In this document: one piece after another, positions 1-19,627 of the stretch
Position numbering within the stretch: position 1 is the stretch's first letter
Layout: each line of letters opens with the position of its first letter
DNA from: an uncultured Clostridia bacterium
Lineage (GTDB): Bacteria > Bacillota > Clostridia > TANB77 > CAG-508
Length of the DNA: 64,000 nt
NCBI GenBank assembly: GCA_934130285.1
Contig: CAKOXT010000006.1
Span: 19,115 to 83,114 of the forward strand
Reading direction: 5' to 3'
Notes under the pieces: model-generated
Database searches by the model: none
What the model was told of the DNA's origin: nothing
What the model saw: only the letters and a program-made list of their open reading frames with translations
Translations under genes and position numbers: made by a program

Positions 1-2089
1 TGGCTCCTCCAACCATATTACTATCATCTCTTGATGATGTAGCAGCAACTGTTTGAACATCACCAGCACTTGCTGAACCAGATCCTGTTGATGTAGTTTT
101 TGACAACACATTTACACCCTGTGTCCAATGAATCTCTAAGAAATTACCTTTATAATATTCATATTTTCCACCAGCTGTTAAATATTGAAAATCAAATTTA
201 AAGTTTTTAATTTTGGCTAAATTATCTAAATAATCAATTTCAATATAAAATTCTTCACCAGATGAAGGATATGGATAATCCTCATCAGTATCTAATGCAT
301 TTCTAGCTGTATCATGGCCATAATTTGTACTTTCATCATTTGTATTTGAGTATACAAATCTATAATTCTTTCCTAATTGAAGTACACTATTTCCATCTTC
401 ATCAACTAATTCATTACCTTGAGCATCTGTTCCAACTAGTATTGAATTAGAAATTCCTGAAAAACTTACCTTAGGTCTGTCACCTTGTTTTGTAACAGCT
501 CTTAAATAGTTAACCTTAAATGGTCCAACTATATACTTATTTGTATCACTATTAAATCTTGTTTGAACTTTTGAAGTATCTTCAGGTTCAAATGAAACTT
601 TATAGTCAATTTTAAATGTTGTATCCTCATTTCTTTCTAATTTTGATACATCACTTACACCTGTAACTTGTTTTATATAATTTTCAAAGTCAGTAGCCTC
701 ATTAGCTAAATCAGTATCTTTTATACTTGCTGAGTCAGCATTATGACCAACTGTTTTCTTTTTCCACCATGCATGTTGAACATATGTATAAGGAGCATAT
801 TCATCACTAATTTGTACATAGTAAAATTTATTTCCTTCTTTTCTTACATATTTTTCTTCACCAGGGTTTCCAACAATATAAATTTCTTGTCCATCTATAT
901 TTGTTTTTGTTGCATCATTAGATGTTGCAGCAGTTACATTATTACCTTTAATTTCTTTTAATCTATATGCAACTCTAAAACCTAAACTAGCAACATCTTC
1001 TTTAATTGGTTGTGAATTATATCCTGAGTATGAATTTTCCAATTTAATTTTGTCATTACTACTTAAATCATATACTTTATTCTTAGCAGCATATATTACA
1101 ATTCCCTCTTCACCGCTTCTATTTAAGAAAACAATATCTCCGGCTTGCAAATCATCAATATTTGTGATCTCTGTAAATCCTTGATTCTTGCAGTAATCTT
1201 CAATAGATTCATCTCCAACATCATATCCACATGAATATAATGCCCATTTTATAAGATGAGTGTTGTTAATTTTTTCATTCCAAACAACATTCTTATCTAA
1301 AGGTATAGTATCTGAATCTCCAAACTCATATCCATTTGACTTAGCAAATTTTGCAATACTTCTAACATTATCTACAAAAGTTGACATTGTATTACCTTGT
1401 GTAGTTAATGTTTGTGAAGGAGTAGGTCCTGTGTACTCTTCTCCTGTATTACTTACTATTGTAGCTGTTTTACCAGGAACATTATTATCAAACTCAGCCA
1501 AAACCCAAGCCTCAGCTGGAGTACATAATCTTGTTTCAGCTAAATTAAATTTAGCTAAAGTCTTACTTGTTGTATTTTCATATTTTGTTGTATATGTTGC
1601 TCCAAAACCTGTCCATTCGTTCAAGTTTCTAAATACTGTTGCAGCCGGTATATCATTTGCTGTTAAATAAGCTGTTTCTTTTCCTTGGTCAGTAGTACTT
1701 GTAGATCTTCCACCACTTGTTACAACTGTACTTCCCATACCAGGTAAAGCAACACCTTTAGCAGAACAGAATAAACTAGGTATGCTAATTAAATCTTCAT
1801 ATGTAATATAAATTCCACCATCTCTTACCTGACTAGAATCAACTAATTCTGATAATGTTGGTGCAGATGGATTTTTTAAAATTACCTTTCCATCTGAATC
1901 CTTTTTTCCATTCCATTCAGCAACAGCAGTAGTACCTCTCGCAACAGAATCCGCTGTAGTCTGTGCCGCTGACTTAGCAGCAGCCCAAACTTCTTGATTC
2001 GTAATTCTTGCATATATAAATAAGCTTAGTAATAGTATGAATGCAATTGTAAATATTATTTTAGACGTTTTCTTTAATTTATTTATCAT
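1..2089 (-). CDS. giant surface protein, family B paralog, 5' partial in window (N-terminal 696 aa; runs off window start)
   Basis: Hand-translated reverse complement. The ATG at 2087-2089 overlaps the TGA stop (2086-2088) of the upstream 1785-aa gene as ATGA, with a GGAGGTGA SD upstream. The N-terminus is a signal/TM segment (MINKLKKTSKIIFTIAFILLLSLFIYA). The frame stays open to position 1. Several blocks are paralogous to the 2041-aa protein, e.g. TNKYIVGPFKVNYL vs NRKYKVGPFSVEYL and EEFYIEIDYLDNLAKIKNFKFDFQYLTAGGKYEYYKGNF vs ENFYIEINYQEGIESIVNLKFYFRYLEASGGYTLYEGNI. Not in the supplied ORF track because it is open-ended. Confidence 0.7.
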   Translation of the reverse strand, partial: MINKLKKTSKIIFTIAFILLLSLFIYARITNQEVWAAAKSAAQTTADSVARGTTAVAEWNGKKDSDGKVILKNPSAPTLSELVDSSQVRDGGIYITYEDLISIPSLFCSAKGVALPGMGSTVVTSGGRSTSTTDQGKETAYLTANDIPAATVFRNLNEWTGFGATYTTKYENTTSKTLAKFNLAETRLCTPAEAWVLAEFDNNVPGKTATIVSNTGEEYTGPTPSQTLTTQGNTMSTFVDNVRSIAKFAKSNGYEFGDSDTIPLDKNVVWNEKINNTHLIKWALYSCGYDVGDESIEDYCKNQGFTEITNIDDLQAGDIVFLNRSGEEGIVIYAAKNKVYDLSSNDKIKLENSYSGYNSQPIKEDVASLGFRVAYRLKEIKGNNVTAATSNDATKTNIDGQEIYIVGNPGEEKYVRKEGNKFYYVQISDEYAPYTYVQHAWWKKKTVGHNADSASIKDTDLANEATDFENYIKQVTGVSDVSKLERNEDTTFKIDYKVSFEPEDTSKVQTRFNSDTNKYIVGPFKVNYLRAVTKQGDRPKVSFSGISNSILVGTDAQGNELVDEDGNSVLQLGKNYRFVYSNTNDESTNYGHDTARNALDTDEDYPYPSSGEEFYIEIDYLDNLAKIKNFKFDFQYLTAGGKYEYYKGNFLEIHWTQGVNVLSKTTSTGSGSASAGDVQTVAATSSRDDSNMVGGA

Positions 2090-5000
2090 ACTATCACCTC
2101 CTTATTTTTCTTATCAATCTGTATCTTAATTACATACAGAGCAATCAGTACCGTTATCAGAGTAGTACTTATAATCATTAAATTGATCATACTTCCACCA
2201 GTTTGAATACCAATGATTAAATCAACCTTACTCATATCATCTTCATCTTGAGCTTGGTTTCCAGGAATAGAATCTATATCTTCAATTGCATACTCATTAT
2301 ATGTCTCTGCAATTTCAAAAGTATTATTTATAATTCCATTTCCATTTTCAGTCATTTGTTTTGTTAATATTAATTTAATTTCTTTTGTTTCACCTGGTTG
2401 AATTAATATATCTTCAAGTTGATTTGTATATGCATTACCATCTGAACCTACATACCATCCATTATTCATGCTTGTATCAAGTTCTAATCCCTCAGGTAAA
2501 TAATCAACTATTGATTTGGCATATCCTGATATCTCTCCTCTGTTTGTAACACTAATTGTATATTCCGCAAATATTTTTGAAGAATTTACATACTTAGGAT
2601 TTATATCAATCTTAGCAAGTTTAGGATTTTCCATTTCGTAAGTATTTGCACCTTCATCATTTTGAACTGTTACTTTATTAAGGTTAGCATCCAATGATAA
2701 ATCAAATATTCCTGCTCTTACTAAACCAATGTCAATATCAGATATACTTGTATCTGTTACTTTAATTTTATCAGTTACTGCTTTATAATTTGAAACTATA
2801 GCATCTGAATTTCTATCAGAATTTACACCCTGCTTCTTATAATCTGTAACTGTATATTTTGAAGAATCATATTCAAATCTTACATAATACTCACCAGGAG
2901 TTACATTTTCAAAAATGTACTCTCCGACATTGTTTGTAACTGTTTGTCCTACAACATCTTGTGTAGCTGCATCACATAAAACAGCAACTACATTTGCCAT
3001 TCCCTCTTCATCATCATCTCTTTGTCCATTTTTATTCATATCAACAAATGCTTTACCTATTATTCTATATACATTATTAGAAATCTGAACTTCTGATTTT
3101 TGAGCTTCTTTTGATGTTCCATTAACAACAACAATATCTTCTGTCGTTTCTTTTTCTTCGTTATTTGTTCCAATAATTATTTCTTCATACGTATTATCTG
3201 TAACATCAGGACTTTGTTGAATTATATTCTCTATCTTATTTGTACTAGCAACAGATAAGTTAGTTCCACCAATATTCCATTTATTCTCTGCCAAAGTCTC
3301 ATCTACTACGTTAGATAAATTCTGAGCTGTACAGTTCAATACAACCTCAGCAGTCTCACCAACGCCTAAGTTTAATGTTAATGTTGGATTTTCAGAAGAT
3401 AATGCTGAGAATACATATCCTTCTTTATTACATTCAACAGATGTAACTCTAAATTCACTTGGCATTTCATTTTTCAAATCAATTTGCGTTGCTTCTGCTG
3501 TACCAGTATTTTTTAGTTTTAAAACATATTGTACTGTATCGCCTTCTTTTACATATCTGTTATCATTAGTTGAATAGTATGTTGCTTCTATTTGTGGTCT
3601 ACCCAATGTGTTCTTAACTTCATTAGATACATATTCTTTTGTAAGTCCATTTGCTATAACTCTAGATGAAGTAGTTAAATCACTTTGTAAATCTGAAATA
3701 TTATTTGTTTTAATAGTTAATTTAAATGTTTTAAATATTTCTAATTTATCCACATTCCATGTAACAGTTCTGTTTTGTGCATCGTATATACCATTTGCAC
3801 CTCTTCTTGTTGTAAGTCCATCATCATTAAACTCTTCTACATATGCATCAACAACATCAACATTCTCTGGTATTGTCTGAATTACTCTTACGTTACTTAA
3901 ATCTTTTCCTTGAACATTAACAACATGCGTTGTATATTCAATTGTATTATTTTCTGCAATCACTCTATCTTGTAAGTTAGCATCCAATTCAATATTTATT
4001 TCTGCTGCTTGTATTGGTAATGACTCAGTAGTTGTATAAATAGGTGTTTCCAATCCTTCAGCTTCTACATTGCTATTAGTTTCTATATATGTTCTATCTG
4101 CTGTTTCTTTATTAACCTCAACCTCATATGTAGCTTCTTCAGTTTTTCCAGGAGCCACATCACCTAAATTAATCTTAAGTTCTGTAACATCTGGTCTTAA
4201 TTCACCATTTTCAACATAAGTTGTTCCATCAGGAATAATACTATTTACAACAGTATCAGCAGAAACTGTTCTACCTTCATTAGTAACTCTAACTGTATAT
4301 TTAATATGTTGTCCTTCAACAACTGAAGCTTCATCAGTATCAGAAACAGTTTCAACTTTAAGAACTGGAGCATTACCAGTTGTTAATACAACCTTATCTG
4401 CTTCAACAACTCCTTCTGTTTTAGTTCCTGTATAATATGTTCCAAAAGTTCCTATTAAGTCTAAGTTATTAGTTAAATTTGCTGGAATTTCAAAATCATA
4501 AGCAAATGATAATATGCTTCCTGATTTAACTACTTCATTAACTACTATTAAATATGATTTAACATTAGCTAATGATTCAGGTTCTACTGTCCATCCATTT
4601 GATGGTTCTTCTAAATCATCAGTAGCATCTCCATTTTCTGAATAATAAACTGTAGTTGTAAATCCACCAGTTTCAGAAATAATCTTTGATGTCATAGGAA
4701 CTGTTGTATTTGTACCTAATGCTTCTCCTGAAACAATAGATTTATTTCCATCAAATATTGTTCTTCCTAAAATATGAACATCACTTAACTCTTCATTTGT
4801 ATTATTAATTACAATCATTTTCATCTCAGCTGCCTTAGCATCTGTAAATGGTGTAATTGAATCTTCTTTTCTTCCTTGATTTACAGAAATCAAAGAACTG
4901 TCAGCTTTGTAATTTGAAACCATTTGAGCATTTACAAGACCTTCTGGAGCAACAATATTAAGCTCTGTATCATATGTTCCCTGTCTTCCTATTAACATAT

Positions 5001-7443
5001 AAGAAGATGGTGGAGTTATCATTGTCCAATCTGAACTCATAACATAATTTGTAGCATCTTCATTGTAGTAGTTCATTATAACAGCTTCATTTTTTGAGGC
5101 TGTATACATATCTACTTTCATATCTGTGTTTAAAATAACTGTTGTACCCTTAGCAGAATCACCAGCTGTGTATTGAGCTTGTGTTCCGTTTAATGTAATT
5201 TTAAGTACTATTCTATCTTCGCTATCTCTTAAAGTTTCAACATTAGCTATTTCTAATTCATCATTTCCATATAATAAGTTCATATCTTTAATATTGATAT
5301 TTTTTATTTCCTTTGGAAATGTCAATTCAAACACTGGATTTTTGTAAACATCACTTGTTGCATTAGCATTATTTAATGAAATATTAATTTCAATATCTTC
5401 ATTATCAACTAATGTACTTAGATCTGTTCTACTTAATGAAAGTGTTGCTCCTGTTGATGTTTCTGTTAGATCTGTTGAAACTGTTTTATCACCAACTTCT
5501 GTAACAATACCTTCTTCCAACTCAGCTAAACCAGTAAAGCTTTCCTCTAAACCTCTAAACATTGTTAAATCAACTTTCTCATAAGTTGTTTTTGTCATAG
5601 TCTTTTTAGCAACAACATTTAAGATTCCATCTCCTGTTGGATTATTTATTCTCATTAATATCTTTCCAATTTTACTCTCCCCAAAGTCAATTGTGATATA
5701 TCCATCGCCATCATCATTAGTATCTTTATTAATTTGAATTAATGAAGTTCCATCTTCACGTAATAATTCAAAACTTCCTGTATCACCAATAATTGATTGC
5801 AAGTTGCTTTTGTTTAATTTTATTTCTTTATAGTAAGTATTTTCTCCTTGCTCTGTTGATGTGTTATATCCATTTCCATAATCATCAACAAAATATTCTG
5901 TTCCTTCTGCTATTTGAACTGTTTTTACTAAATCTACTCTTGAAATATTTATATCAAATGTATTGTCATATACAATGCTGTATTCAGGTTCATTTGAATT
6001 ACCATTTGCATATAAATATCCTTTGCTTACTTCTGCTGTTCTTCTTGAAACATCATAAGTAATTATATTTGAATTTGCCTGAGATAAATCATATTCTTTT
6101 TCTATTGCATTAGAGATTTCATTTGTGTTTGTACTTGTAAATACTGTTGATTTTGCACTAACATTTGCTTTTAAAATTCCATCTGTTAAATCTGAATAAT
6201 CTTCATATGTATATGAAATAATGTATTCATCATTTCCATTATTCATTTTGTATTTTCCATCTTTTTCTGGATTGTTTACATTTATGAAGACTTTACCATT
6301 TTCATAAGACCAGTTCTCAACAGTAAATAATGTTTCACCATTTAAAAGTCCATTTGTGAATCCTGTACTAATTGCTGTAACATTAACGTCTTTTATTGCA
6401 GCACCATCAATAGCTGGTAATTCAACTTTTACGTTTGTATCCTTAACAGGTAATTGATTTTTAGTATCTGTTCCAACTGTAACTTTTATTTGAACTAATG
6501 CTTGTCTTGCTCCATTTTTATTATAAGGAATAAATTTTTCAACATCACTTCCAACTACTAAATTTATATCATTAGAAATATCTAAAACAGGTTTAGTAGA
6601 TTTTGTTATTATTGATTCATTTCCTTCCTCATCAACATATGTTCCTAATAAACTTAGTTCAACTCCAGATTGAAGTTTATTCATATCTATTGATTCTTCA
6701 TTCTTAAGTTCTATTGGAATATAAACTTTTATTTCTGTTCCACCATTAATTTGTTTTAACTTAATTTTGCTTTCATCAATTGATTGAATATATTCTCCAA
6801 ATGAAATATTGTCTTTTAATTTGAAAGTTTGATTAGCTAAATCTTTTATATCAACTTTAGCATTCTTTAAATAACCACTTGATTTAACACCTAATGTAAT
6901 TTCGATTGCTAATCCATCTTGAAGTTTTTGTCCTTCTGTTACTTTCTCCTCTTGAGCATCTTTCGTATCTTCTTCAACTGGTTGTTCTTCATCTGTTGAA
7001 TCATTTGTATTATCTGTAGCCACAACTTCATTTGAAACATTTTCATCAGTCATAGTATCTTTTTCCGTATCAGCCGTGTTTTCATCTGATTCTGCAACTA
7101 CATTCTCTGACGTTGTATCCTCTACTGGATTTTCAACATCATCTTGTGATTGTTCTTCATCAACCACATTTTGTTCAACACTACCCACTGTATCTGTACT
7201 TGAATTAGCCTCATCTGTACCAACTTGTACATCAGTCGTTGTATCTTCAGTCTGATCTGTCTGCTCTTCATCTTGTGTATTCGTAATCATCACAAACTGT
7301 GCAGAATAATTGATAACATCACTTGAGTCATCAGCTGCATAAGAAACCAACGCAGATCCAAGGGTTGCAAAATTGCTAAATGCAAGCATAAATACAATTA
7401 AGCTAGCTATGAACTTGTTCTTGAAATCTCTTTTCTTTTGCAT
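2086..7443 (-). CDS. giant cell-surface protein, family A (signal peptide, acidic D/E/T-rich stalk, SdrD-B/Cna-B-like and DUF11-like repeats, C-terminal TM anchor with basic tail)
   Basis: 1785-aa ORF with a strong SD (GGAGGTAAATA-ATG). The N-terminus MQKKRDFKNKFIASLIVFMLAF is a signal peptide. It carries a GEYIFENVTPGEYYVRFEYD SdrD-B-like motif and a DUF11-like segment (TISVTNRGEISGYAKSIVDYLPEGLE). The C-terminus is IGIQTGGSMINLMIISTTLITVLIALYVIKIQIDKKNK. It is collinear and homologous with the 1613-aa protein. Confidence 0.75.
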   Translation of the reverse strand: MQKKRDFKNKFIASLIVFMLAFSNFATLGSALVSYAADDSSDVINYSAQFVMITNTQDEEQTDQTEDTTTDVQVGTDEANSSTDTVGSVEQNVVDEEQSQDDVENPVEDTTSENVVAESDENTADTEKDTMTDENVSNEVVATDNTNDSTDEEQPVEEDTKDAQEEKVTEGQKLQDGLAIEITLGVKSSGYLKNAKVDIKDLANQTFKLKDNISFGEYIQSIDESKIKLKQINGGTEIKVYIPIELKNEESIDMNKLQSGVELSLLGTYVDEEGNESIITKSTKPVLDISNDINLVVGSDVEKFIPYNKNGARQALVQIKVTVGTDTKNQLPVKDTNVKVELPAIDGAAIKDVNVTAISTGFTNGLLNGETLFTVENWSYENGKVFINVNNPEKDGKYKMNNGNDEYIISYTYEDYSDLTDGILKANVSAKSTVFTSTNTNEISNAIEKEYDLSQANSNIITYDVSRRTAEVSKGYLYANGNSNEPEYSIVYDNTFDINISRVDLVKTVQIAEGTEYFVDDYGNGYNTSTEQGENTYYKEIKLNKSNLQSIIGDTGSFELLREDGTSLIQINKDTNDDGDGYITIDFGESKIGKILMRINNPTGDGILNVVAKKTMTKTTYEKVDLTMFRGLEESFTGLAELEEGIVTEVGDKTVSTDLTETSTGATLSLSRTDLSTLVDNEDIEINISLNNANATSDVYKNPVFELTFPKEIKNINIKDMNLLYGNDELEIANVETLRDSEDRIVLKITLNGTQAQYTAGDSAKGTTVILNTDMKVDMYTASKNEAVIMNYYNEDATNYVMSSDWTMITPPSSYMLIGRQGTYDTELNIVAPEGLVNAQMVSNYKADSSLISVNQGRKEDSITPFTDAKAAEMKMIVINNTNEELSDVHILGRTIFDGNKSIVSGEALGTNTTVPMTSKIISETGGFTTTVYYSENGDATDDLEEPSNGWTVEPESLANVKSYLIVVNEVVKSGSILSFAYDFEIPANLTNNLDLIGTFGTYYTGTKTEGVVEADKVVLTTGNAPVLKVETVSDTDEASVVEGQHIKYTVRVTNEGRTVSADTVVNSIIPDGTTYVENGELRPDVTELKINLGDVAPGKTEEATYEVEVNKETADRTYIETNSNVEAEGLETPIYTTTESLPIQAAEINIELDANLQDRVIAENNTIEYTTHVVNVQGKDLSNVRVIQTIPENVDVVDAYVEEFNDDGLTTRRGANGIYDAQNRTVTWNVDKLEIFKTFKLTIKTNNISDLQSDLTTSSRVIANGLTKEYVSNEVKNTLGRPQIEATYYSTNDNRYVKEGDTVQYVLKLKNTGTAEATQIDLKNEMPSEFRVTSVECNKEGYVFSALSSENPTLTLNLGVGETAEVVLNCTAQNLSNVVDETLAENKWNIGGTNLSVASTNKIENIIQQSPDVTDNTYEEIIIGTNNEEKETTEDIVVVNGTSKEAQKSEVQISNNVYRIIGKAFVDMNKNGQRDDDEEGMANVVAVLCDAATQDVVGQTVTNNVGEYIFENVTPGEYYVRFEYDSSKYTVTDYKKQGVNSDRNSDAIVSNYKAVTDKIKVTDTSISDIDIGLVRAGIFDLSLDANLNKVTVQNDEGANTYEMENPKLAKIDINPKYVNSSKIFAEYTISVTNRGEISGYAKSIVDYLPEGLELDTSMNNGWYVGSDGNAYTNQLEDILIQPGETKEIKLILTKQMTENGNGIINNTFEIAETYNEYAIEDIDSIPGNQAQDEDDMSKVDLIIGIQTGGSMINLMIISTTLITVLIALYVIKIQIDKKNKEVIV

Positions 7444-7489
7444 TATTTACCTCCACAAATCTTTTGGCTTTTTTATTCTTATAATCCTT

Positions 7490-7525
7490 ATTTTAAAGAG
7501 TAAAAAAAATCTGTCAATTTTATTT
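7490..7525 (-). promoter_or_regulatory. candidate sigma-A-type promoter for the 1785-aa gene (TTGACA at 7513-7518 on minus strand; weak -10)
   Basis: TTGACA lies about 70 nt upstream of the start codon. The downstream AT-rich region has no clean TATAAT, so this is tentative. Confidence 0.25.
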
Positions 7526-7693
7526 TTTTCCAATATTGCATTTTTAAGAATTCACACACAAAAATACTATTACGGAAAATAGTACATTATGAGCTATTTT
7601 ACATTTTGATTAAATTTTTAGACACATTTTATCGAATATGCTCGATTAGTTTACATATTATTTTTATGGAAACCTTTTTTCCTTGTTTTGTTC

Positions 7694-7731
7694 AAGTTAT
7701 CCACATACTTATACACCTCTGTGGATAACTT
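7694..7731. promoter_or_regulatory. perfect 12-bp inverted repeat containing two consensus DnaA boxes (TTATCCACA / TGTGGATAA) separated by 14 bp
   Basis: AAGTTATCCACA tacttatacacctc TGTGGATAACTT. Each arm contains the 9-mer TTATCCACA. It lies between the terminator of the 2041-aa gene and the promoter/start of the 1785-aa gene. Confidence 0.5.
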
Positions 7732-7952
7732 TTGCTTTTTCTTCACCCTCGTTGAACAACACATCTAATTTCATTTAATACTTATTTTTGATAATAGGAA
7801 AAAGTTCATATATTTTTTGTGCAATATTGATATTTGTAATTATTAATGTTAACTAACGAATTTCTTTTATATCAAACTTATTCTTAAATCATCACAGCTA
7901 AGCCTAGCAATACATCTAATTAATGCAATAATTATCACCAAGTATGAATACA

Positions 7953-7990
7953 GAAAAAGAACGTAGATTATTTAAAATCTACGTTCTTTA
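7953..7990 (-). terminator. rho-independent terminator after the 2041-aa gene
   Basis: 13-bp stem AAGAACGTAGATT / AATCTACGTTCTT with a 6-nt loop, followed on the minus strand by a T-run. It sits 20 bp downstream of the stop at 8006. Confidence 0.7.
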
Positions 7991-8005
7991 AATTTAGATA
8001 TATAC

Positions 8006-14000: not shown

Positions 14001-14131
14001 TCAGGCGAATAACTAATTTGTGTCTCTACCTTTCTTGATTGATCGATAACTACATCCACAGCATATATTAGCCCTGTTGAAAGCATTACAAAAAATATTA
14101 TTATCAAAACATTTTTTATGAATCTTTTCAT
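8006..14131 (-). CDS. giant cell-surface protein, family B (signal peptide, Cys-rich N-terminal domain, coiled-coil segment, multiple SdrD-B/Cna-B-like repeats, C-terminal TM anchor plus RKRKED tail)
   Basis: 2041-aa ORF. The SD is AAAGGAGGTATGTATA-ATG. The start overlaps the stop of the upstream 1613-aa gene (TAATG). Motifs include NIAVTVYLYDTSGNERK...GHYKIDRLEAPGTGSNYFYVVKFEYDG and GNYYIYGYLAGDYILRFDYG (SdrD-B-like). The C-terminus is IAPTGIALRTYIKNYIVPIAILVGTIVIMMVMFGVKQVQIFRKRKED. Confidence 0.75.
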   Translation of the reverse strand: MKRFIKNVLIIIFFVMLSTGLIYAVDVVIDQSRKVETQISYSPDANPPASTNVWFPDLKSHTSWLCGQHGATFFRRVDPQVTIEASACGHNANKTITSITPVSDSFNVFDNDTCGNGWTPEHKSLTDVSLKMNAEEYSGKYYKAKLGIGTDVASTSSSETTINVFTTGMTHFKPNGKTSGKNEKNSALAYILAECQYNVGAPIGSYVQVAFWQAMITPDATSGNIQSGLFDSGNLPFSNQTDAKQEEITNLQYQIAQWNHQISQGVSASEATRLNKQIKAANDRINQLNKEINQLISSSTGNVNLQATSLWKEATDFGEMWDRIVAAGGYDNTIKDVTPKYSDGSTKVTVEYDATNRKYKVGPFSVEYLERYTGTTQLCGMTGIPELIVRKDGRNASLKFDSDWRITYASGRNVSKYPSSYNVYPHTKENFYIEINYQEGIESIVNLKFYFRYLEASGGYTLYEGNIEEIQWSAVVKSSTCSDWELCDEGSRHLSSHNHGDSEDPDYCSPGKLCPHGFYYNHIDHVWVKYSSKIISKDKDIQDIAYCTGASRSYAGNRYGGTGSANPSRVFNWSIDLTTRLEGDVWCDANPEKTNNTVIGIKESNDAPLKNIAVTVYLYDTSGNERKKAIAHNANGTQISWPQYTDANGHYKIDRLEAPGTGSNYFYVVKFEYDGQVYRHTIYMSDRNSVVNGRAGQRYAANYKNNPNYYSTSSMAVEEVVDRYAFDQSFGEITGEEPIKANDSTNGLTYTTDENGVGKGASGNLNYYGKKTTATNDTTFIDSKLESPAQNQDNENKKITDKAEYARYRMSASTYYDNTDMKGLHDRNNFRIQYPLEGWKYNMNGVAVQTGDKNKRYIAEYMLHINLGLQGRAYTDMSVLKDLYKVTMVVNEQKLTKQFNSIGGTSDNVQNSSDYEATLKATLEKRKTGSSEYKYSLGLYSTDLAYQSYQRYKNAIKEVQDIKKGTELRVYVTYVVRVYNNSETNDVEFNEITDYYDENYTLVEPTKYKNTDGSFKVSIVDEKLQRNEETVADFPYYRIMDNKDGAANNVWHETKDENMKGHQGESLVWDDDGSVGTMHKSTTASLDTLKIHTNQYAEIFTTYEVDLKGYQDMQYTRADIKTRVNLLGDKQNVAEISSYSTFYTKVDNDGSGLYTGFNSGWVSGKVDRDSAPNNIDTSNVINRDKYEDDTDRAIPINIAIDTHERDMYGYVWEDIKNTETGSYGIKVGNGSYDSEDKLIQNVEVTMYEVISLGKLNSDGTYNSTYDSFDYYYKVPTEYYNYGSKNAYNIDASNSENDDIVKTSSSDVQNIDGNTVQGNYYIYGYLAGDYILRFDYGTSNSIDTKETTYYSNANGSANKNEINNNVSKYNGQDYENTQFLDGQLDTLNDKYLDLTAKIDGKSFIDTAVSKARDNESRRMVVDAYSRTIENDRGELLRERNSAEFIESTRMFAETPIMQIEIEDPRTLEKPSNDLYQEKVEKDADKKQRVEQHRYTIKNINFGLEERANTDIKLEKYIKSISMIKSGEVIFNATMLENGEVIKEDTNAMHLDKLTYLSHEKAGLVQQGFYAIAVEDDYLNDLTLKITYKIKIRNVSEVDFTGKIANLYRAEDIVNMATIAPTDKLTENIIDDMKNNVDNDEGVASNATLAEILAKDDPGLKDIVIGANENRNEDTIRPKVIIYGRYVGRFYYENAISETASGTVIVKSYLNDAVQNPTVIYPADNVVKTTVDQVVDYIDIDASLDYQGSVTDATWDLSGLEKEANGYNKSLNGLLSKSSYRKISDNGLFNIYDDKDREYINNTRSNIAISYNERLGTLQSHREMSTTKDNDKDAGRVEYLNGVGAGTSRYNTDLTRELIPEAYSKLEDKQDAISNIEITVAKTASSGTDANQMKIDNLAEVLVYSNPTGRRDTNSVPGNAMAIVNNLAVGTGEQGVWYAGFNSEAYWDVAINKKVDEKPEFASLTAEEKQQKKEEMKKDWTQYPENDAWSPEYVTVIAPTGIALRTYIKNYIVPIAILVGTIVIMMVMFGVKQVQIFRKRKED

Positions 14132-17100
14132 TATACATACCTCCTTTCATCAATTTTTTTCCAAATCAGAAAGGCAATTGGTATAATTGCAATAATTGAA
14201 ACAATAATTATCGGAATAACTGAAATACTTAAACCTGTTGAAATACCAATAATTGAATCTGCATAAGATAAATCATCTTCCAACAATTTATTACCCGGAG
14301 TTGAATCAATATCTTCAATCCCCTTATCATTAGTTGTTTCTGCAATTTCAAATGTATTATGAACCAATCCTGTATTTTCTTCTGTCATATTTTTTACTAA
14401 TATCAATTTCAATTCTTTTGATTCATTTGGTTGTATAATATAATCTTCTAAACTTCTTGTACACACATTACCATCATTATCTAAATACCAATCAGAATTT
14501 AAAGAAGAATCGAACTCTAAATCGTCTGACATATAGTCTACTATTTTACTAGCATTTCCAGGTATTGTTCCTTGATTTGTAACTGTTACCACATACTCAA
14601 TCATAACCTTTGAGCCACCAACTAATTTAGGATCAATATCAACTTTACCTAGCTTTTTATTTTCAGGTATAAACTCATTGTTTTCTGCAGAATTTTGTAC
14701 AGTCATTTTATTAACATATGCATCAAGTTTTAAATCAAAAACTCCATCATCTGCTAAACCTAAATCAACATTAGCCACACTTGAATTACTTATTTCTATA
14801 TTATCTGTTAAATGATTATCTCCAACTGTAATTATCTGTGCTGGTAAATTTGAACTATAATCACTACTCAAAATATATTTAGAATCATCATAATTAAATT
14901 TAACATAGTAAATTCCTTTTTCTAAATCTCTAAACCAATATCTTCCTGAAATATCAGTAATTGCAGATGTAACTAGTTCATTTGTCTCTGAGTTATACAA
15001 GTTAGCAATTATTCCACTAATGGCTTGCTCTGTGTTATCATATTGTTGATTTCTATTTTCATCAATATAAGCAACACCAGTTACCTGATATTTATTATCA
15101 CCAGTTGTACTATCTTCTAAAAGTGTATATGTTTCTTTCTTTGTATCTACTCCAGCAACGCTATTAAGTGATATTGCATTATAAACATAGTTTTTATCTA
15201 AATTTTTTATTTTAACATTAACTAAAATTTTAGCTTCTGAATTTTCAGGTAAATATAACGGAATTGATTTATCTTCTCTATCTAATAAATCATATACAGT
15301 TTCAGCATCACCAACTACGACTTTCACGTAATCAATTTCAGCATTATCAGATACAATATTATCTAAATCAACTGAATTAACCATGCATTCTCCTATATTT
15401 TTTACAATATATTCATAGTTTAATTCTTCATCAGCATTAGAATATCCCATATCACTTTTATTAACGCTCTCAACACTAATGATTGGTTTATAATAAGTAA
15501 CATTTTCATTTTTCTCAATTGCATTCTCACCATTATTTAAATCACAAACTGTGTTAATAGTCGCAATATTTTTAGATACAGAACTATTATTACCTGTCAT
15601 TTTTAAGTTGCATTCATAATTTAATGAATCACCTGGATTAAACTCCTTAATCAATAATGTTATTTGATTATTCTCATAATCAATTTGCTCATCTACATCT
15701 ATTGAAGAATTATTAATCGCAGAAATAATAGAAAAATCGCTATCAAATTTTTTAACTATTTTCACATTATTAAATGATTTATCACTAGAATTATATACTG
15801 TAAAATAATCTGGAAATTCTGCATTCAATACTATTGGCATATAATAAATATTGTCTACCATATTTACATTATTTTCTAACACTTTACTTTCTTCTGATTC
15901 AAAATCGACTTTATTAAAATTCTTTCCTTCAACAGATGCTGCTAATTTTACAGATTCTACACTTTCATCTTTAGATAAAACATTAAATCTAATTATAAAT
16001 GAACGTTCTGAATTAGCCGCTAATTTAGCAAGATTTATTTTAGCCACTCCATTGTCAACAGTTCCTTCAAGATCATCTGCATCAAGATTTTTTACTGATA
16101 ATGATTCTGGTACATTGATTGTTATAACAATATCTTCTGCTGCTACATCTCCTGTATTTTTTAAAGTAATTTCATACTCGGCATCAGTAAATTCAGTAAG
16201 TACATCACTCTTCAACACCATACTAGCTTCAATATTTGCCTCTTTTGCAGTCTCATATCCTATCTTATTAGCAGAAGAATTTGATGAAACATTAGTAGAA
16301 GTCTCTTCATAATAAGTAGCATATGTTCCATAGAATGCATCACCAGCTTTTAAATTTGCTGGAATAACATAATCATATGAAAATTGAAGCTTAGTCTTAG
16401 GCGCTAAAACATAATCACTATTTAATAAAATCAAATATGATTTTATTGCACCCATTTTATAAAAATCTGTACGCCATCCATTATTTTCATCATATAAATC
16501 AGCTGTTGCTTCTCCATTCTCTGAATAGTAAACTGCATAAGCTAAATCAGGCTTTAAAGAAGAAATTTCTGTATCTAATATAGTATCAACTGTTGTTCCT
16601 AAATCTTCACCAGTTGTCACATCTTTATTTCCTGCAAAAGGTATTCTTCCTAAAATCTTGAAATTTGAATAACTCTTACCAGTATTATTTAATACAGTTA
16701 TATCCATTGTTGCTAATTTAGCTTCAGCACCTTCTTCAACTAGATCTGTTTCAGCACCTTGTTTTACTGAAGAAACTTTTCCTTTATCTTCATTTTCTGT
16801 ATTTTCATCTTTAGTTTCTGAAGTTTGTCCATTAACTAATTCCTCAGGAGCTTTATATGAAATTTGAACACCATCATATCCATTCATCTCATAAGAAACA
16901 TTTCCTGCCCCAGATAGCATATGCCATTCTGATTCATTTGAATATTTCTTAGAAGTAACATTATAATAGTACATTTCAACCATTTCACTAATGTTTCCTG
17001 TAAATTCATCAATCTCTAAGTCCATGTCTATAGAAATAATTGTACCATTTGTTTCCTTATTTAAATTGTAAGATTTTTGTGTTCCTGCTAAAGTAACTCT

Positions 17101-18972
17101 AATTACTTTATTGTCACCATCAATTAAAGTTTCTACATTTGCAATCTCTAATTCACCATTCGCATAAAATAAATCAGTATTCTTTATTGTCACATTTTTA
17201 ATTGCTTGAGGTAATCTAATTTCAAAAACAGGATTTTCATATAAATCAGATGTTTCTTCACTATTATTTAATCTAACTTTTAAGTTTACTCCTTCACTTG
17301 TTACTGTTGTTGGAAATTCAGTTTGAGCCATTTCAACAGTTGCTGCAGAAGTAGTTTCATTAATAGTAATTTCTGATGATACTTCACCTAAATCATCAAC
17401 AGCTCCTTCATTATATGTTGCAAATCCTTGAGAAACATTTACCAAAGCTGTAAATTCTTTTACAAAACTACGGTTATAATTAACTTTTTTAATTGCCTTT
17501 GTACTTAAAAATGTAATATTTCCATCTGCTATTGGTGAAGTTGTTAAAATTTTAATCTTAGAAATTGCCTCTTCATAAGAAACAACGTAATTTCCATTTT
17601 CATCTGCTTCTTTATCAAATGTAATTTCTGAAATTACTTCATCATTCATATTTAATATTGAAACTTTTCCTTCTTCTCCTAGAATATTAACTAAATTATC
17701 TCTAGAAAATTCTGTAGATTTATATGTAGAAATCAAAACATCAGGTGTATCTGTTGAATAAGCATTTGAATCAGAATCTACAAAATACTCATCCTTATCC
17801 ATAATTTCCAAACCAGAAATCAAATCAGCTCTACTAATATTAATTACATCTTTTTTTGTATATGTAATTGAATATTTTTCTTCATCTGTATTTGCCATTA
17901 AATATCCATTACTGATTGAATCTTCTTTGTCTTCTCTTGTATATTGAACTACATTTCCAACTGGTTTTGATAAATCATATACTACTTCTGTACTTTTCTC
18001 TTCTTTATTACCAGCATAATTTTCAATCTCTACATTGATATTATTTGTAACTACATCTTCACCTTCTTTTACACCTTTATATAAAAATGTAACTGTAAAT
18101 GAATCTTCACCAAAAGAATTAAATATTTTACCATCTTGTTCTTTATTTAAAACATTAATTTCTAATACTTTCTCATTTATAGATGAACTAATATTGCTTG
18201 CATCAATTTCATAATCTTCTCTACCTTGAGTATATGAAATTTTATTTGCTTCAACTTTTGCATCATCAAATTCCATACCAGGTATTTCTGGTATATCTAT
18301 TTTTATTTTTGAATTTTTTATAGGTAAGTTATTATTTTTATCAACTCCAGAAGTCTTAACATTAAGCTGTAGAATTTTTCCATTTTCGCCATCTTTTTCA
18401 TAATCAATATTTTTTAAGATAGTATAATCAATTTTTGTAGAAGTAGTTTCTTTCCAAGAAAGTTTTAATTCAAGTTGCTTTTCAATTTTATGCTCGTTTC
18501 CTTCATTATCAACAAATGCACCAGTAAAAGTTACTTTGTTTACTTTACTTATGTCAGATACTTTTAATGTATCTCCTCTCTTAAACTCAATTGGAATTGT
18601 AATCGTTTGAGTTTCATTTTGATTTAATACTTGAAGTTTTATTTGATTATCTTTTAATTTCACTGCTGAATCTTCTTTTACTGAAAAATTCAAATTATCT
18701 TCAAATTTCAAAGTACCACTCTTGAAATATCCCTTATTCTTTACATTTACATCAAAGTTTAAAGTAATCGAATTATTATCAGCATTACAATCAAGCGAAT
18801 TTGTATTTTCTATATTTTCACCTGAAAAATACCCTTTCACTTCTACTGAATTTTCATAATCTTCTGCTGCTAAACTTATATTAGTCAGTATTGGCATGCA
18901 TTCTAACATCATCAGTAAGAACGTTACCATCAAAGCAACTAACTTCTTAAAAATCAATTTTTTCTCTTGCAT
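14131..18972 (-). CDS. giant cell-surface protein, family A (paralog of the 1785-aa protein; signal peptide, SdrD-B-like and DUF11-like domains, C-terminal TM anchor)
   Basis: 1613-aa ORF with SD GAAGGGAAAG. The signal peptide is MQEKKLIFKKLVALMVTFLLMML. There are long collinear similarities to the 1785-aa protein, e.g. DLYENPVFEIRLPQAIKNVTIKNTDLFYANGELEIANVETL vs DVYKNPVFELTFPKEIKNINIKDMNLLYGNDELEIANVETL. The C-terminus is IIGISTGLSISVIPIIIVSIIAIIPIAFLIWKKIDERRYV. Confidence 0.75.
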   Translation of the reverse strand: MQEKKLIFKKLVALMVTFLLMMLECMPILTNISLAAEDYENSVEVKGYFSGENIENTNSLDCNADNNSITLNFDVNVKNKGYFKSGTLKFEDNLNFSVKEDSAVKLKDNQIKLQVLNQNETQTITIPIEFKRGDTLKVSDISKVNKVTFTGAFVDNEGNEHKIEKQLELKLSWKETTSTKIDYTILKNIDYEKDGENGKILQLNVKTSGVDKNNNLPIKNSKIKIDIPEIPGMEFDDAKVEANKISYTQGREDYEIDASNISSSINEKVLEINVLNKEQDGKIFNSFGEDSFTVTFLYKGVKEGEDVVTNNINVEIENYAGNKEEKSTEVVYDLSKPVGNVVQYTREDKEDSISNGYLMANTDEEKYSITYTKKDVINISRADLISGLEIMDKDEYFVDSDSNAYSTDTPDVLISTYKSTEFSRDNLVNILGEEGKVSILNMNDEVISEITFDKEADENGNYVVSYEEAISKIKILTTSPIADGNITFLSTKAIKKVNYNRSFVKEFTALVNVSQGFATYNEGAVDDLGEVSSEITINETTSAATVEMAQTEFPTTVTSEGVNLKVRLNNSEETSDLYENPVFEIRLPQAIKNVTIKNTDLFYANGELEIANVETLIDGDNKVIRVTLAGTQKSYNLNKETNGTIISIDMDLEIDEFTGNISEMVEMYYYNVTSKKYSNESEWHMLSGAGNVSYEMNGYDGVQISYKAPEELVNGQTSETKDENTENEDKGKVSSVKQGAETDLVEEGAEAKLATMDITVLNNTGKSYSNFKILGRIPFAGNKDVTTGEDLGTTVDTILDTEISSLKPDLAYAVYYSENGEATADLYDENNGWRTDFYKMGAIKSYLILLNSDYVLAPKTKLQFSYDYVIPANLKAGDAFYGTYATYYEETSTNVSSNSSANKIGYETAKEANIEASMVLKSDVLTEFTDAEYEITLKNTGDVAAEDIVITINVPESLSVKNLDADDLEGTVDNGVAKINLAKLAANSERSFIIRFNVLSKDESVESVKLAASVEGKNFNKVDFESEESKVLENNVNMVDNIYYMPIVLNAEFPDYFTVYNSSDKSFNNVKIVKKFDSDFSIISAINNSSIDVDEQIDYENNQITLLIKEFNPGDSLNYECNLKMTGNNSSVSKNIATINTVCDLNNGENAIEKNENVTYYKPIISVESVNKSDMGYSNADEELNYEYIVKNIGECMVNSVDLDNIVSDNAEIDYVKVVVGDAETVYDLLDREDKSIPLYLPENSEAKILVNVKIKNLDKNYVYNAISLNSVAGVDTKKETYTLLEDSTTGDNKYQVTGVAYIDENRNQQYDNTEQAISGIIANLYNSETNELVTSAITDISGRYWFRDLEKGIYYVKFNYDDSKYILSSDYSSNLPAQIITVGDNHLTDNIEISNSSVANVDLGLADDGVFDLKLDAYVNKMTVQNSAENNEFIPENKKLGKVDIDPKLVGGSKVMIEYVVTVTNQGTIPGNASKIVDYMSDDLEFDSSLNSDWYLDNDGNVCTRSLEDYIIQPNESKELKLILVKNMTEENTGLVHNTFEIAETTNDKGIEDIDSTPGNKLLEDDLSYADSIIGISTGLSISVIPIIIVSIIAIIPIAFLIWKKIDERRYV

Positions 18973-19011
18973 AATAACTTTCCCTTCTACTATTCGCCTT
19001 TTAGCATATCT

Positions 19012-19050
19012 AATATTTATATTAATATTTTTAATATAACTGTCAATATC
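19012..19050 (-). promoter_or_regulatory. candidate sigma-A promoter of the giant-protein operon (TTGACA -35, then TATAAT-like TAATAT/TATAAA -10)
   Basis: On the minus strand: TTGACAgttatattaaaaatatTAATATaaat, about 55 nt upstream of the 1613-aa start. Confidence 0.4.
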
Positions 19051-19237
19051 AACAATTTTCCAGCAGTACTTTGAGAATTTGTCGTTTTATTACGGATATA
19101 CAGGGGAAAAATCATTTTTTGTTCTTTATTAAGTTTTGTTTACATTTTTATAAATTGAGATTTTTTATCACACTTTTGGTATCACATTCATAATATATAT
19201 AAAAACGCTGCATATATTATGATTAGGGGGATTTAAG

Positions 19238-19363
19238 ATGAATAATTTAGATATGAACGCTCTTATGAAAATCATTTCAAAAATGGATAAAAAAGACTTG
19301 GAAGCTGGGCTTGCCAAGGCACAAGAGATTTTAAAGCAAAAGAATAATGGAAGCACTAACTAA
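19238..19363 (+). CDS. small hypothetical protein (41 aa, MNNLDMNALMKIISKMDKKDLEAGLAKAQEILKQKNNGSTN)
   Basis: Strong SD AGGGGGA 6 nt upstream of the ATG. The ORF is followed by a hairpin terminator. It is below the ORF-track size cutoff. It is divergent from the giant operon. Confidence 0.4.
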   Translation: MNNLDMNALMKIISKMDKKDLEAGLAKAQEILKQKNNGSTN

Positions 19364-19462
19364 CCAAAGATACTCTACTTTGAAAAATATTTATTTTTTC
19401 AACATTTTTATTGGTAATTGTTTAAAAATTGAAAGACATAATAATGTATTAACATTATTAAA

Positions 19463-19488
19463 GGGCGTTCTGCAAACGCCCAATTTTC
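19463..19488 (+). terminator. hairpin terminator (GGGCGTT ctgca AACGCCC + AATTTT)
   Basis: A GC-rich 7-bp stem in an AT-rich context, followed by a T-rich tail. Confidence 0.45.
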
Positions 19489-19627
19489 AATATACATAAA
19501 ATGAACAGATCAGATTTTTCAATAAATTTATTCGCGTACAAAAATTTATGAAATAAATTCTATAAACAATGTAGTATAACGACAGTAATACTACTCTCAT
19601 ATTATATTAAAAATAAGGAGGTATTTT

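What the first reader, a model, noticed from the sequence alone, without database searches (positions are those of the whole stretch)
1..19050. Tandemly duplicated two-gene module [A-B][A-B] of giant anchored surface proteins
Four consecutive minus-strand genes encode proteins of 1613 (A1), 2041 (B1), 1785 (A2) and more than 696 aa (B2, truncated by the window edge). A1 and A2 are collinear paralogs with SdrD-B/Cna-B-like and DUF11-like domains. B1 and B2 are paralogs of a different architecture, with a Cys-rich N-terminal domain. In both modules A and B overlap stop-on-start (TAATG at 14131; ATGA at 2086-2089), which implies translational coupling and fixed stoichiometry. Module 1 has a TTGACA promoter and ends in a clean terminator (7953-7990). 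Module 2 has its own upstream region. Together they occupy 19 kb (30% of the window). A conserved, coupled stalk-protein plus partner-protein pair, kept through duplication, suggests a functional two-component surface structure (adhesin or fibril system) rather than independent adhesins. No dedicated assembly genes (sortase, secretion ATPase) are in the window. I do not recognise this pairing as a described system.
Basis: partly seen in the sequence, partly recalled or inferred. Interest (0 to 1): 0.75.

Follow-up and report, generated by a model that had tools for sequence, protein, structure and literature searches.

The report
Coupled pair of giant surface adhesins
An uncultured human-gut Clostridium carries two copies of a tightly coupled two-gene unit encoding giant fibre-like surface proteins, and the pairing is kept across many related gut bacteria. 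The parts are ordinary Gram-positive adhesin parts, and nothing yet shows that the two proteins bind each other.

Summary
Four minus-strand genes, A1 (1613 aa), B1 (2041 aa), A2 (1785 aa) and B2 (more than 696 aa, cut by the window edge), lie at the stated coordinates. The stop/start overlaps, a terminator hairpin after B1 and the A1/A2 and B1/B2 paralogy are all present.

The A-then-B order recurs in about 28 loci from uncultured gut Clostridia, down to about 22% identity. Most junctions overlap, with a ribosome-binding site inside the last codons of A.

Each protein has a signal peptide, a unique head, a stalk of SdrD_B and CLIPPER (DUF11) domains, and a C-terminal sorting-like signal (xxTG, hydrophobic segment, basic tail). 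One related clade has a sortase gene directly upstream, and the window itself encodes a canonical LPNTG protein.

Two natural fusions argue that A and B work together: an A-B read-through, and an A head grafted onto a complete B. Some relatives have B without A, or A followed by a VWA-head protein.

Verdict: a new, unnamed variant of Gram-positive fibrillar adhesins, made as a coupled pair. A physical complex is unproven. Interest is moderate.

The parts
14131..18972 (-). A1, 1613 aa. Signal peptide, unique head (aa 36-910), three CLIPPER/DUF11-like domains (910-1295), SdrD_B (1295-1415), a fourth CLIPPER-like domain (1415-1575), then GISTG + hydrophobic segment + KKIDERRYV tail.
8006..14131 (-). 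B1, 2041 aa. Signal peptide, Cys-motif head (28-480), Cys/His-rich insert (480-570), two [SdrD_B-like + CLIPPER-like] modules (572-1200 and 1200-2000), then APTG + hydrophobic segment + basic tail.
2086..7443 (-). A2, 1785 aa. Collinear paralog of A1 (31% identity) with an acidic low-complexity N-terminal extension. C-terminal GIQTG + hydrophobic segment + basic tail.
1..2089 (-). B2, the first 696 aa only (orthologs are about 2670 aa). Head with LFCSAKG and YVQHAWW motifs and the shared beta-sandwich.
12692..14050 (-). B1 head (aa 28-480). The AlphaFold2 model has pLDDT 78. It shows N-terminal beta strands, three conserved helices, a B1-specific coiled-coil hairpin and a beta-sandwich of about 130 aa.
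13934..13936 (-). Codon of Cys66 of B1, the conserved head cysteine (38 of 43 sequences) in the motif [LFY][LFY]C..(H/K)G.
13496..13513 (-). B1 residues 207-212, VQVAFW. A conserved Q-x-A-phi-W motif on a predicted helix (Q in 39 of 43 sequences, W in 40 of 43).
1010..1255 (-). NlpC/P60-like insert in the B2 head (aa 279-360). It scores below the Pfam cut-off and, by eye, lacks the usual catalytic His positions. It is present only in this species group.
14140..14146 (-). Shine-Dalgarno AAGGAGG for B1, inside the last codons of A1 (ERRYV). The A1 stop (14133-14131) overlaps the B1 ATG (14131-14129).
2097..2103 (-). Shine-Dalgarno AAGGAGG for B2, inside the last codons of A2 (NKEVIV). The A2 stop TGA (2088-2086) overlaps the B2 ATG (2089-2087).
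14134..14247 (-). C-terminal sorting-like signal of A1: IIGISTG, a hydrophobic stretch, then a basic tail. T1579 and G1580 are nearly invariant in the A family.
8009..8146 (-). C-terminal sorting-like signal of B1: VIAPTG, 6-7 residues, a hydrophobic stretch (2006-2032), then RKRKED. The G is invariant, and P and T are nearly so in close relatives.
2089..2211 (-). C-terminal sorting-like signal of A2: IIGIQTG, a hydrophobic stretch, then a basic tail.
7956..7989 (-). Intrinsic-terminator-like hairpin (14 bp stem, T-run) that ends module 1.
19019..19046 (-). Promoter-like TTGACA-16-TAATAT upstream of A1 (consensus match only).
7490..7517 (-). Promoter-like TTGACA-16-TAAAAT upstream of A2 (consensus match only).

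Best explanation
A and B are two Sec-exported, giant, fibre-like surface proteins of an uncultured spore-forming gut Clostridium. They are made from one mRNA in roughly equal amounts by translational coupling and act as a functional unit in adhesion.

Each protein presents a unique N-terminal head on a rigid stalk of CnaB-type (SdrD_B) and CnaA-type (CLIPPER/DUF11) Ig-like domains. Each ends in a sorting-type signal (xxTG, hydrophobic segment, basic tail). A sortase most likely cleaves this signal to fix the protein to the cell wall; failing that, the signal holds the protein in the membrane.

B carries the reactive head: a conserved Cys next to a Q-x-A-x-W helix, possibly a thioester-type or otherwise Cys-dependent binding site. 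A carries a separate head of about 870 aa with no known fold. The two heads are expected to cooperate at the tip of the fibre layer.

The whole unit was duplicated before the related species diverged (A1B1 and A2B2), giving two specificities.

Shown: the gene anatomy, the coupling signals, the domain content, conservation of the pair, the fusions, and sortase adjacency in one clade.
Inferred: export, sortase processing in this organism, adhesion as the function, and cooperation of the two heads.
For: - Anatomy and coupling. In 25 of 30 A-B junctions in relatives the gap is at most 24 nt, and 19 of them overlap. AAGGAGG or AAGGGGG lies inside the last codons of A, which constrains the A tail (RRYV, KEVIV).
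- Stalk domains: SdrD_B and DUF11 pass the Pfam cut-offs in A1 and A2. SdrD_B is found in 21 of 21 A members and 13 of 21 B members. The hhalign domain maps give probabilities of 92-99% for the SdrD_B and A-internal CLIPPER matches, and 72-83% for the B CLIPPER-like assignments. DUF11/CLIPPER is an isopeptide-bonded stalk domain of fibrillar adhesins (bioRxiv 10.1101/2025.04.25.650565).
- Topology: exactly two hydrophobic segments per protein, one N-terminal and one C-terminal.
- Sorting signals: TG is nearly invariant before the hydrophobic segment in A, and xPTG in B. B's motif resembles the (E/Q/V)(V/P)PTG motif read by the S. pyogenes pilus sortase (PMC3019223).
- Sortase: a gene passing the TIGR01076 cut-off lies directly upstream of the genes in L022-L029. 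The window itself encodes a canonical LPNTG protein.
- Functional link: A1-type genes pair with B1-type and A2-type with B2-type across genomes. P0023 is an A-B read-through fusion. L019 carries the A head fused onto a complete B.
- Head: conserved C66, G70, Q208, A210 and W212. The model has pLDDT 78, with the motif on a helix.
Against: - No direct evidence of expression, surface location, adhesion or A-B contact.
- No sortase lies in the 64 kb window or within 10 kb of the pair in the closest relatives.
- Some B relatives have PPFG or KPLG in place of PTG, which a sortase would not be expected to cut.
- B exists without A in L024 and L025, and A pairs with a VWA-head protein in L027 and L032, so the pair is not obligate.
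- Each fusion is a single case.
Confidence: 0.55

Rival explanations
1. A and B are independent adhesins. Each binds its own target, and they share an operon only for co-regulation. The tight junction reflects compact gene packing, not a joint structure.
For: - The domain content is that of ordinary single-gene fibrillar adhesins.
- B occurs alone or as B-B next to the sortase in L024 and L025.
- The slot downstream of A can hold a different, VWA-head protein.
- The A and B heads are unrelated.
Against: - The order and the overlap are kept down to about 22% identity and through a duplication.
- The C-terminal residues of A are constrained by B's ribosome-binding site.
- The A head is fused directly onto a complete B in L019.
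Confidence: 0.25
2. A and B form a covalent two-subunit fibre. A dedicated sortase joins the Thr of B's xPTG signal to a Lys of A, and A is then fixed to the wall. The result would be a minimal 'pilus' of two giant subunits with B as the tip adhesin.
For: - B's (I/S/T/A/E)(P/A/E)PTG motif resembles the VPPTG and EVPTG motifs of the S. pyogenes tip adhesin Cpa and its major pilin.
- A and B carry different signal motifs.
- A sortase is adjacent in one clade.
- B-slot heads are either the Cys-motif type or VWA, the two head types I recall from pilus tip adhesins (thioester in Cpa; VWA in RrgA and SpaC), from my own knowledge and not checked here.
- Coupling would give about 1:1 amounts.
Against: - The adjacent sortase matches best the PDB entry 4D70 (E 9.5e-15), which I recall as a Clostridium perfringens class D sortase. 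No class C or class B model reaches its cut-off.
- No pilin motif or acceptor Lys could be identified.
- The subunits are 5-10 times larger than known pilins.
- B occurs without A.
- No sortase lies near the pair in this organism.
Confidence: 0.12
3. The pair is a structural component of the cell envelope, such as an S-layer-like coat, cell-cell cohesion in chains, or spore appendages, and not a host or substrate adhesin.
For: - The locus sits next to the cell-shape and division genes minC, a PBP2-type gene and mreBCD in several species.
- The organism sporulates (SpoIIE and SpoIIR).
- The proteins are conserved core-like genes in this lineage and recur in many metagenomes.
Against: - The neighbourhood differs in more distant relatives.
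- There are no S-layer, cell-wall-binding or spore-coat domains.
- The heads diverge and are swapped between relatives (31% identity between A paralogs; VWA replacement), as expected for adhesins under diversifying selection.
Confidence: 0.08

Closest known systems
[quoted passage not shown]
   Same: Signal peptide, N-terminal reactive head, a long stalk of CnaA/CnaB-type Ig-like domains and a C-terminal sorting signal. The B head has a [YFL]C-type motif and a Q-x-x-phi-W motif on a helix, followed by a beta-sandwich. This is the motif order described for class II thioester domains (PMC6194298).
   Different: The thioester domain is not detected by any sequence or fold comparison run here. No conserved bond-forming Gln was found. 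The sorting motif is xPTG or I-x-TG rather than LPXTG. The proteins come as a translationally coupled pair with a second, unrelated giant protein.
Sortase-assembled pili, especially the S. pyogenes FCT pilus (Cpa tip adhesin, Spy0128 shaft, sortase Spy0129)
   Same: Several sorting-signal proteins encoded side by side, with a dedicated sortase in some loci. The xPPTG-type motif resembles (E/Q/V)(V/P)PTG (PMC3019223). The tip-type heads (Cys motif or VWA) also resemble those of pilus tip adhesins.
   Different: No polymerising pilin, pilin motif or class B/C sortase was identified. The subunits are 1600-2700 aa. Only two partners are present. No sortase lies in this window.
Sdr-family MSCRAMMs (SdrD, UafA)
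   Same: SdrD_B repeats are the only part of A with relatives in the PDB (E 3.5e-24 to 8.5e-12).
   Different: No match to the ligand-binding A domain of the Sdr proteins. By inspection there are no Ser-Asp repeats and no LPXTG. The heads are unrelated to anything solved.
CLIPPER (DUF11) fibrillar adhesins
   Same: Three to four CLIPPER-like stalk domains in A, and CLIPPER-like modules in B.
   Different: CLIPPER only defines a stalk module and says nothing about the heads or the pairing.

Membership tests
Gram-positive fibrillar adhesin (stalk plus head surface protein) | N-terminal Sec signal peptide and no internal membrane segments | tested here: met
   One N-terminal and one C-terminal hydrophobic segment in each of A1, A2 and B1. 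B2 has the N-terminal one (sequences).
Gram-positive fibrillar adhesin (stalk plus head surface protein) | Stalk of repeated Ig-like CnaA/CnaB-type domains | tested here: met
   SdrD_B and DUF11 pass the Pfam cut-offs in A1 and A2. SdrD_B is found in 21 of 21 A and 13 of 21 B family members. hhalign gives 92-99% for the SdrD_B and A-internal CLIPPER matches, and 72-83% for the B CLIPPER-like assignments.
Gram-positive fibrillar adhesin (stalk plus head surface protein) | Demonstrated adhesive head domain | not testable with these tools
   The heads of A (aa 36-910) and B (aa 28-480) match no Pfam, NCBIfam or PDB entry.
Sortase substrate (cell-wall sorting signal) | Canonical LPXTG-type motif recognised by the Gram_pos_anchor model | tested here: not met
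   PF00746 does not match A1, A2 or B1. The motifs are GISTG, GIQTG and APTG.
Sortase substrate (cell-wall sorting signal) | Tripartite signal: conserved xxTG motif, hydrophobic segment, basic tail at the extreme C-terminus | tested here: met
   The layout is the same as in the window's own LPNTG protein.
Sortase substrate (cell-wall sorting signal) | A sortase encoded in the genome or locus | tested here: inconclusive
   None in the window. A sortase lies directly upstream of the genes in L022-L029. An LPNTG protein in the window implies a sortase elsewhere in the genome.
Thioester domain (TED) adhesins / TIE proteins | [YFL]C-phi-zeta motif and T-Q-x-x-phi-W motif on helix alpha-2 | tested here: met
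   Motifs such as WLCGQ, LFCSA and FYCIQ, and VQVAFW, VQHAWW and AQNAIW. The motif lies on a predicted helix. Motif definitions are from PMC6194298.
Thioester domain (TED) adhesins / TIE proteins | Universally conserved bond-forming Gln on a late beta strand | tested here: not met
   No second conserved Gln within residues 28-480. The region after the sandwich aligns too poorly to decide.
Thioester domain (TED) adhesins / TIE proteins | Detectable homology or fold match to known TEDs | tested here: not met
Sortase-assembled pilus | Pilus-specific (class C, or class B as in S. pyogenes) sortase in the locus | tested here: not met
   None in the window. The sortases in related loci pass only the general TIGR01076 model, and no class model reaches its cut-off. 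Their best PDB match is 4D70.
Sortase-assembled pilus | Polymerising major pilin with an acceptor Lys (pilin motif) | not tested
   No YPK-type motif was noticed when reading the A1 sequence, and no systematic search was run. Finding an acceptor Lys needs experiment.
NlpC/P60 peptidase (B2 insert) | Score above the Pfam cut-off, and a Cys-His-His catalytic triad | tested here: not met
   19.6 bits against a cut-off of 23. By eye, the sequence has GIVIY where I expect the HVGIY-type His motif from my own knowledge of the family.

The most novel reading that the evidence does not exclude
A and B are the two subunits of a previously undescribed heteromeric surface fibre. A dedicated sortase (or the Cys-reactive head of B) covalently couples one giant B tip protein to one giant A base protein. 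This would be a 'two-giant-subunit pilus' with a new Cys-dependent warhead fold, widespread in uncultured human and animal gut Clostridia.
Probability: 0.12. Interest if true: 0.7.

Novelty: new variant of a known kind. Interest (0 to 1): 0.4.

Why it matters
These proteins fill about 19 kb, 30% of the 64 kb window, in an uncultured gut Clostridium that recurs in dozens of assembled metagenome contigs, human-gut samples among them. They are probably its main means of contact with mucus, food particles or other microbes.

The work defines two unnamed protein families: the A head, and the B head with about 150 sequence clusters. It also defines a conserved, translationally coupled pairing and a set of non-canonical sorting motifs with a cognate sortase in one clade.

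If the B head proves to be a thioester-type or other Cys-reactive binding module, it would extend covalent adhesion to a large group of commensal anaerobes and offer a new protein-ligation module. If the pair is only co-expressed, it remains a useful but ordinary addition to the catalogue of fibrillar adhesins.

Tried and rejected
1. Mobile-element origin. Megablast of 1-20000 against plasmids and phages found nothing, and the neighbours are chromosomal housekeeping genes. Rejected.
3. The first AlphaFold2 job, with a 10-sequence alignment, gave pLDDT 44 and was discarded.
4. The third word-indexed homolog search, using the gappy head alignment, returned nothing. The afdb50 fold library was not available.
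5. Sortase in the window. The 254-aa ORF at 42713-43477 gave a weak tblastn hit (E 0.18) but is a TatD DNase.
6. Riboswitch or leader RNA upstream of A1 or A2, such as the c-di-GMP control known for C. difficile sortase substrates. Rfam gave no hit at gathering or E-value thresholds.
7. Active NlpC/P60 enzyme in B2. Below the cut-off, and the His positions appear to be missing.
8. More A-head/B-head fusions among the 173 collected proteins. Only the P0023 read-through was found.

Full report
**Observation.** The DNA has about 29% G+C. The neighbours are chromosomal housekeeping genes: minC, a PBP2-type transpeptidase, mreD, mreC, mreB, radC, pcrA/uvrD, prfA-like, smc, spoIIE and spoIIR. Megablast against plasmids and phages found nothing. 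The host is therefore a low-GC, rod-shaped, spore-forming Firmicute.

A1 and A2 are collinear paralogs at 31% identity. In pairwise BLASTP, B1 and the B2 fragment share only one region significantly (E 1e-16). Full-length proteins of the B2 type from other genomes align with 67-73% of B1 at 28-29% identity.

At both junctions the stop codon of A overlaps the ATG of B (TAATG and ATGA). AAGGAGG lies 7-8 nt upstream of each start, inside the last codons of A. A 14-bp hairpin with a T-run follows B1 at 7989-7956. TTGACA-type hexamer pairs precede A1 and A2, but such matches are no more frequent than chance in this AT-rich DNA.

**What the proteins are made of.** Each complete protein has exactly two hydrophobic segments, an N-terminal signal peptide and a C-terminal segment followed by a basic tail. 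A1 and A2 pass the Pfam cut-offs for SdrD_B and DUF11. DUF11 has recently been renamed CLIPPER and shown to be an isopeptide-bonded CnaA-like stalk domain of fibrillar adhesins (bioRxiv 10.1101/2025.04.25.650565).

Profile-profile comparison of sub-alignments gives these domain maps:
- **A1:** head 36-910 with no detectable relatives; three CLIPPER-like domains (910-1295); SdrD_B (1295-1415); a fourth CLIPPER-like domain (1415-1575); then the C-terminal signal.
- **B1:** head 28-480; a Cys/His-rich insert (480-570); then two modules of [SdrD_B-like + CLIPPER-like] (572-1200 and 1200-2000) that are homologous to the last module of A.

The two proteins therefore share their wall-proximal stalk architecture and differ completely in their heads. 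Only the SdrD_B part of A has relatives among solved structures. The B profile has none.

**The pair in other genomes.** B1 has few relatives in 5.8 billion proteins, all unnamed. A scan of one genome per species found 28 loci, all from uncultured Clostridia MAGs of human, rabbit, sheep and mouse guts.

I classified every long ORF in these loci by BLASTP against A1, A2, B1 and B2. An A-type gene lies immediately upstream of the B-type gene in nearly all loci with enough upstream sequence. A1-type genes pair with B1-type, and A2-type with B2-type. ABAB or BAB arrangements recur in L001, L002-L006, L009, L010 and L013. L021 carries another ABAB arrangement, with more divergent A and B genes.

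Of 30 A-B junctions, 25 have a gap of at most 24 nt and 19 overlap. The ribosome-binding site is embedded in the conserved last codons of A (...RRYV or ...KEVIV). The pairing and the translational coupling are therefore under selection, and the unit was duplicated before these species diverged.

The exact A1, B1 and A2 proteins occur on 27-38 contigs of public assemblies, so the organism is recurrent. A full HMMER scan of 1.84 billion cluster representatives with the B-head profile found 153 clusters, mostly proteins of 2000-2900 aa.

**Exceptions and fusions.**
- The pair is not obligate. L024 has sortase-B-B and L025 has sortase-B, both without A.
- In L027 and L032, A is followed, with a 10-nt overlap, by a protein whose sequence shows a VWA-like DxSGS motif instead of the Cys motif. 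One of the 21 aligned B members also has VWA by Pfam.
- P0023 (4116 aa) is an in-frame A-B read-through. It keeps A's C-terminal hydrophobic segment and B's signal peptide, a topologically consistent hairpin.
- In L019 a single 2478-aa protein consists of the A head (residues 4-958, A-family HMM E 9e-56) followed directly by a complete B (Cys-motif head, stalk and anchor), and no separate A gene lies upstream.

Each fusion is a single case. Together they are classical evidence that the two heads work side by side.

**C-terminal signals and sortase.**
- In the A family, the hydrophobic segment is preceded by [IL]I[GS][IVL]xTG. T1579 and G1580 are nearly invariant.
- In the B family, it is preceded by (I/S/T/A/E)(P/A/E)PTG[LI] or IPTTG, VETG or VPTG. 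The G is invariant.
- This layout of motif, hydrophobic stretch and basic tail is the layout of a sortase sorting signal. It matches that of a small protein in the same window with a canonical LPNTG signal (41072-41464), which also implies that the organism has a sortase.
- In seven more distant loci (L022-L029) a 250-aa sortase gene lies in the locus just upstream of the A-B, B-B or B genes, directly adjacent in five of them. It passes the general sortase model TIGR01076 but no class model. Its best solved relative is 4D70 (E 9.5e-15), which I recall as the Clostridium perfringens class D sortase.
- B's motif resembles the (E/Q/V)(V/P)PTG motif read by the S. pyogenes pilus sortase, with VPPTG in the tip adhesin Cpa (PMC3019223).
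- Against a universal sortase reading: there is no sortase in this window or within 10 kb in the closest relatives, and a few B relatives have PPFG or KPLG in place of PTG.

**The B head.** Alignment of 28 to 44 heads shows a conserved Cys (C66 of B1, in 38 of 43 sequences) in [LFY][LFY]C..(H/K)G. It also shows a conserved V-Q-x-A-phi-W motif (Q208 in 39 of 43, W212 in 40 of 43), a conserved EA..F..Y helix, and a beta-sandwich with GPF...EEFYIE motifs.

These match the first two sequence motifs of bacterial thioester domains, [YFL]C-phi-zeta and TQxx-phi-W on helix alpha-2. The order of elements, with a beta-sandwich after the helices, recalls class II thioester domains (PMC6194298). A second AlphaFold2 run with a 44-sequence alignment gave a usable model (pLDDT 78, pTM 0.65). 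It contains N-terminal strands, three conserved helices (the motif lies on the second), a B1-specific coiled-coil hairpin and the sandwich.

Every comparison with known thioester domains failed:
- No Pfam hit, even at E up to 10, in any of 28 heads.
- No PDB sequence hit.
- No Foldseek hit at E up to 1e-3.
- hhalign probability of 0.15% against the class II domain of pLS20 TIE.
- No second conserved Gln, the bond-forming residue that defines the family, within residues 28-480. The region after the sandwich aligns too poorly to judge.

I therefore do not file B as a thioester-domain protein. I rate that reading at roughly one in four. I describe the head as a new Cys-containing module that may work in a similar, covalent or Cys-dependent, way.

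**Mechanism proposed.** One transcript per module is read so that ribosomes finishing A start B, giving near-equal amounts. Both products are exported by Sec. Their C-terminal signals hold them at the membrane until a sortase fixes them to the wall, or they stay membrane-anchored. The rigid stalks, probably cross-linked internally, project two different heads from the surface, where they act together in binding. The duplicated modules A1B1 and A2B2 provide two specificities.

Shown: the anatomy, the coupling signals, the domain content, conservation of the pair, the fusions, and sortase adjacency in one clade. Inferred: export, processing, adhesion and cooperation of the heads.

The main rivals are:
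- Independent adhesins that merely share an operon.
- A covalent two-subunit fibre in which a sortase joins B to A.
- A structural envelope role.

**Comparison with known systems and novelty.** The closest known kinds are TIE-type fibrillar adhesins and sortase-dependent surface proteins and pili. The stalk domains and overall layout are the same. The differences are the two heads without known relatives, the non-LPXTG motifs, the giant size, and above all the conserved, translationally coupled pairing with an unrelated second giant protein. I found no description of this pairing in the literature searches I ran.

I rate it a new variant of a known kind. It is of moderate interest: useful for understanding how abundant uncultured gut Clostridia attach, and possibly a source of a new reactive binding module, but not a surprise in kind.

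Noticed in passing
window 41072-41464 (+): A 130-aa secreted protein: signal peptide, a Ser/Asn/Thr-rich low-complexity region, then a canonical LPNTG motif, a hydrophobic segment and a KIVKKED tail. It is a classical small sortase substrate and implies a sortase elsewhere in the genome. It overlaps a 100-aa ORF on the opposite strand that is probably spurious.
   Followed up: partly
locus L019 6692-14128 (MAG BRZ_HH__bin29): A single 2478-aa protein that joins the A-family head (residues 4-958) directly to a complete B protein (Cys-motif head, Cys/His insert, stalk, anchor). This is a domain-level fusion of the two partners.
   Followed up: yes
protein P0023 (4116 aa, one metagenome contig): An in-frame read-through of a complete A into a complete B. 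It keeps A's C-terminal hydrophobic segment and B's signal peptide as a membrane hairpin. It could be genuine or a sequencing error at the stop codon.
   Followed up: partly
loci L027 13262-15526 and L032 15164-17518: Here the gene that overlaps the end of A encodes a different partner, with a VWA-like sequence (DVSGSMSG) instead of the Cys-motif head. This suggests the downstream slot accepts interchangeable adhesive heads.
   Followed up: partly
window 12420-12690 (-), B1 residues 481-570: A Cys/His-rich insert after the head beta-sandwich (C-x5-C ... H-x-x-H ... C-x5-C-x-H-G). Comparable Cys/His clusters appear near the same place in distant B proteins (P0025, L019, L020, L023, L028). It may be a metal-binding or disulfide knot on an extracellular protein.
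   Followed up: no
window 1010-1255 (-), B2 residues 279-360: An NlpC/P60-like segment inserted into the B2 head between the Cys motif and the Q-x-A-W-W helix. It is found only in this species group (window and L002). It scores below the Pfam cut-off and appears to lack the catalytic His residues.
   Followed up: partly
window 19238-19363 (+) and 19628-20354 (+): A 41-aa ORF (MNNLDMNALMKIISKMDKKDLEAGLAKAQEILKQKNNGSTN) and two small ORFs (116 and 129 aa, no Pfam hit) lie between minC and A1, divergent from A1. ORFs of similar size lie at the same place in L002-L004 and L033, and the larger ones recur in other loci. Their function is unknown; they might be regulatory.
   Followed up: no
window 30929-32254 (-): A 441-aa protein with BspA-type leucine-rich repeats, another likely surface or adhesion protein. 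It lies next to a family-4 glycosyltransferase gene, with M23 peptidase genes nearby.
   Followed up: no
window 49187-50882 (+): An ECF-type sigma factor followed by a protein with a weak DUF4179 match, a likely anti-sigma factor, about 30 kb from the adhesin genes. No link to them was tested.
   Followed up: no
window 1-62000: GC skew is negative throughout until about 62 kb, and almost all genes are on the minus strand. This is consistent with one replichore whose leading strand is the minus strand.
   Followed up: no
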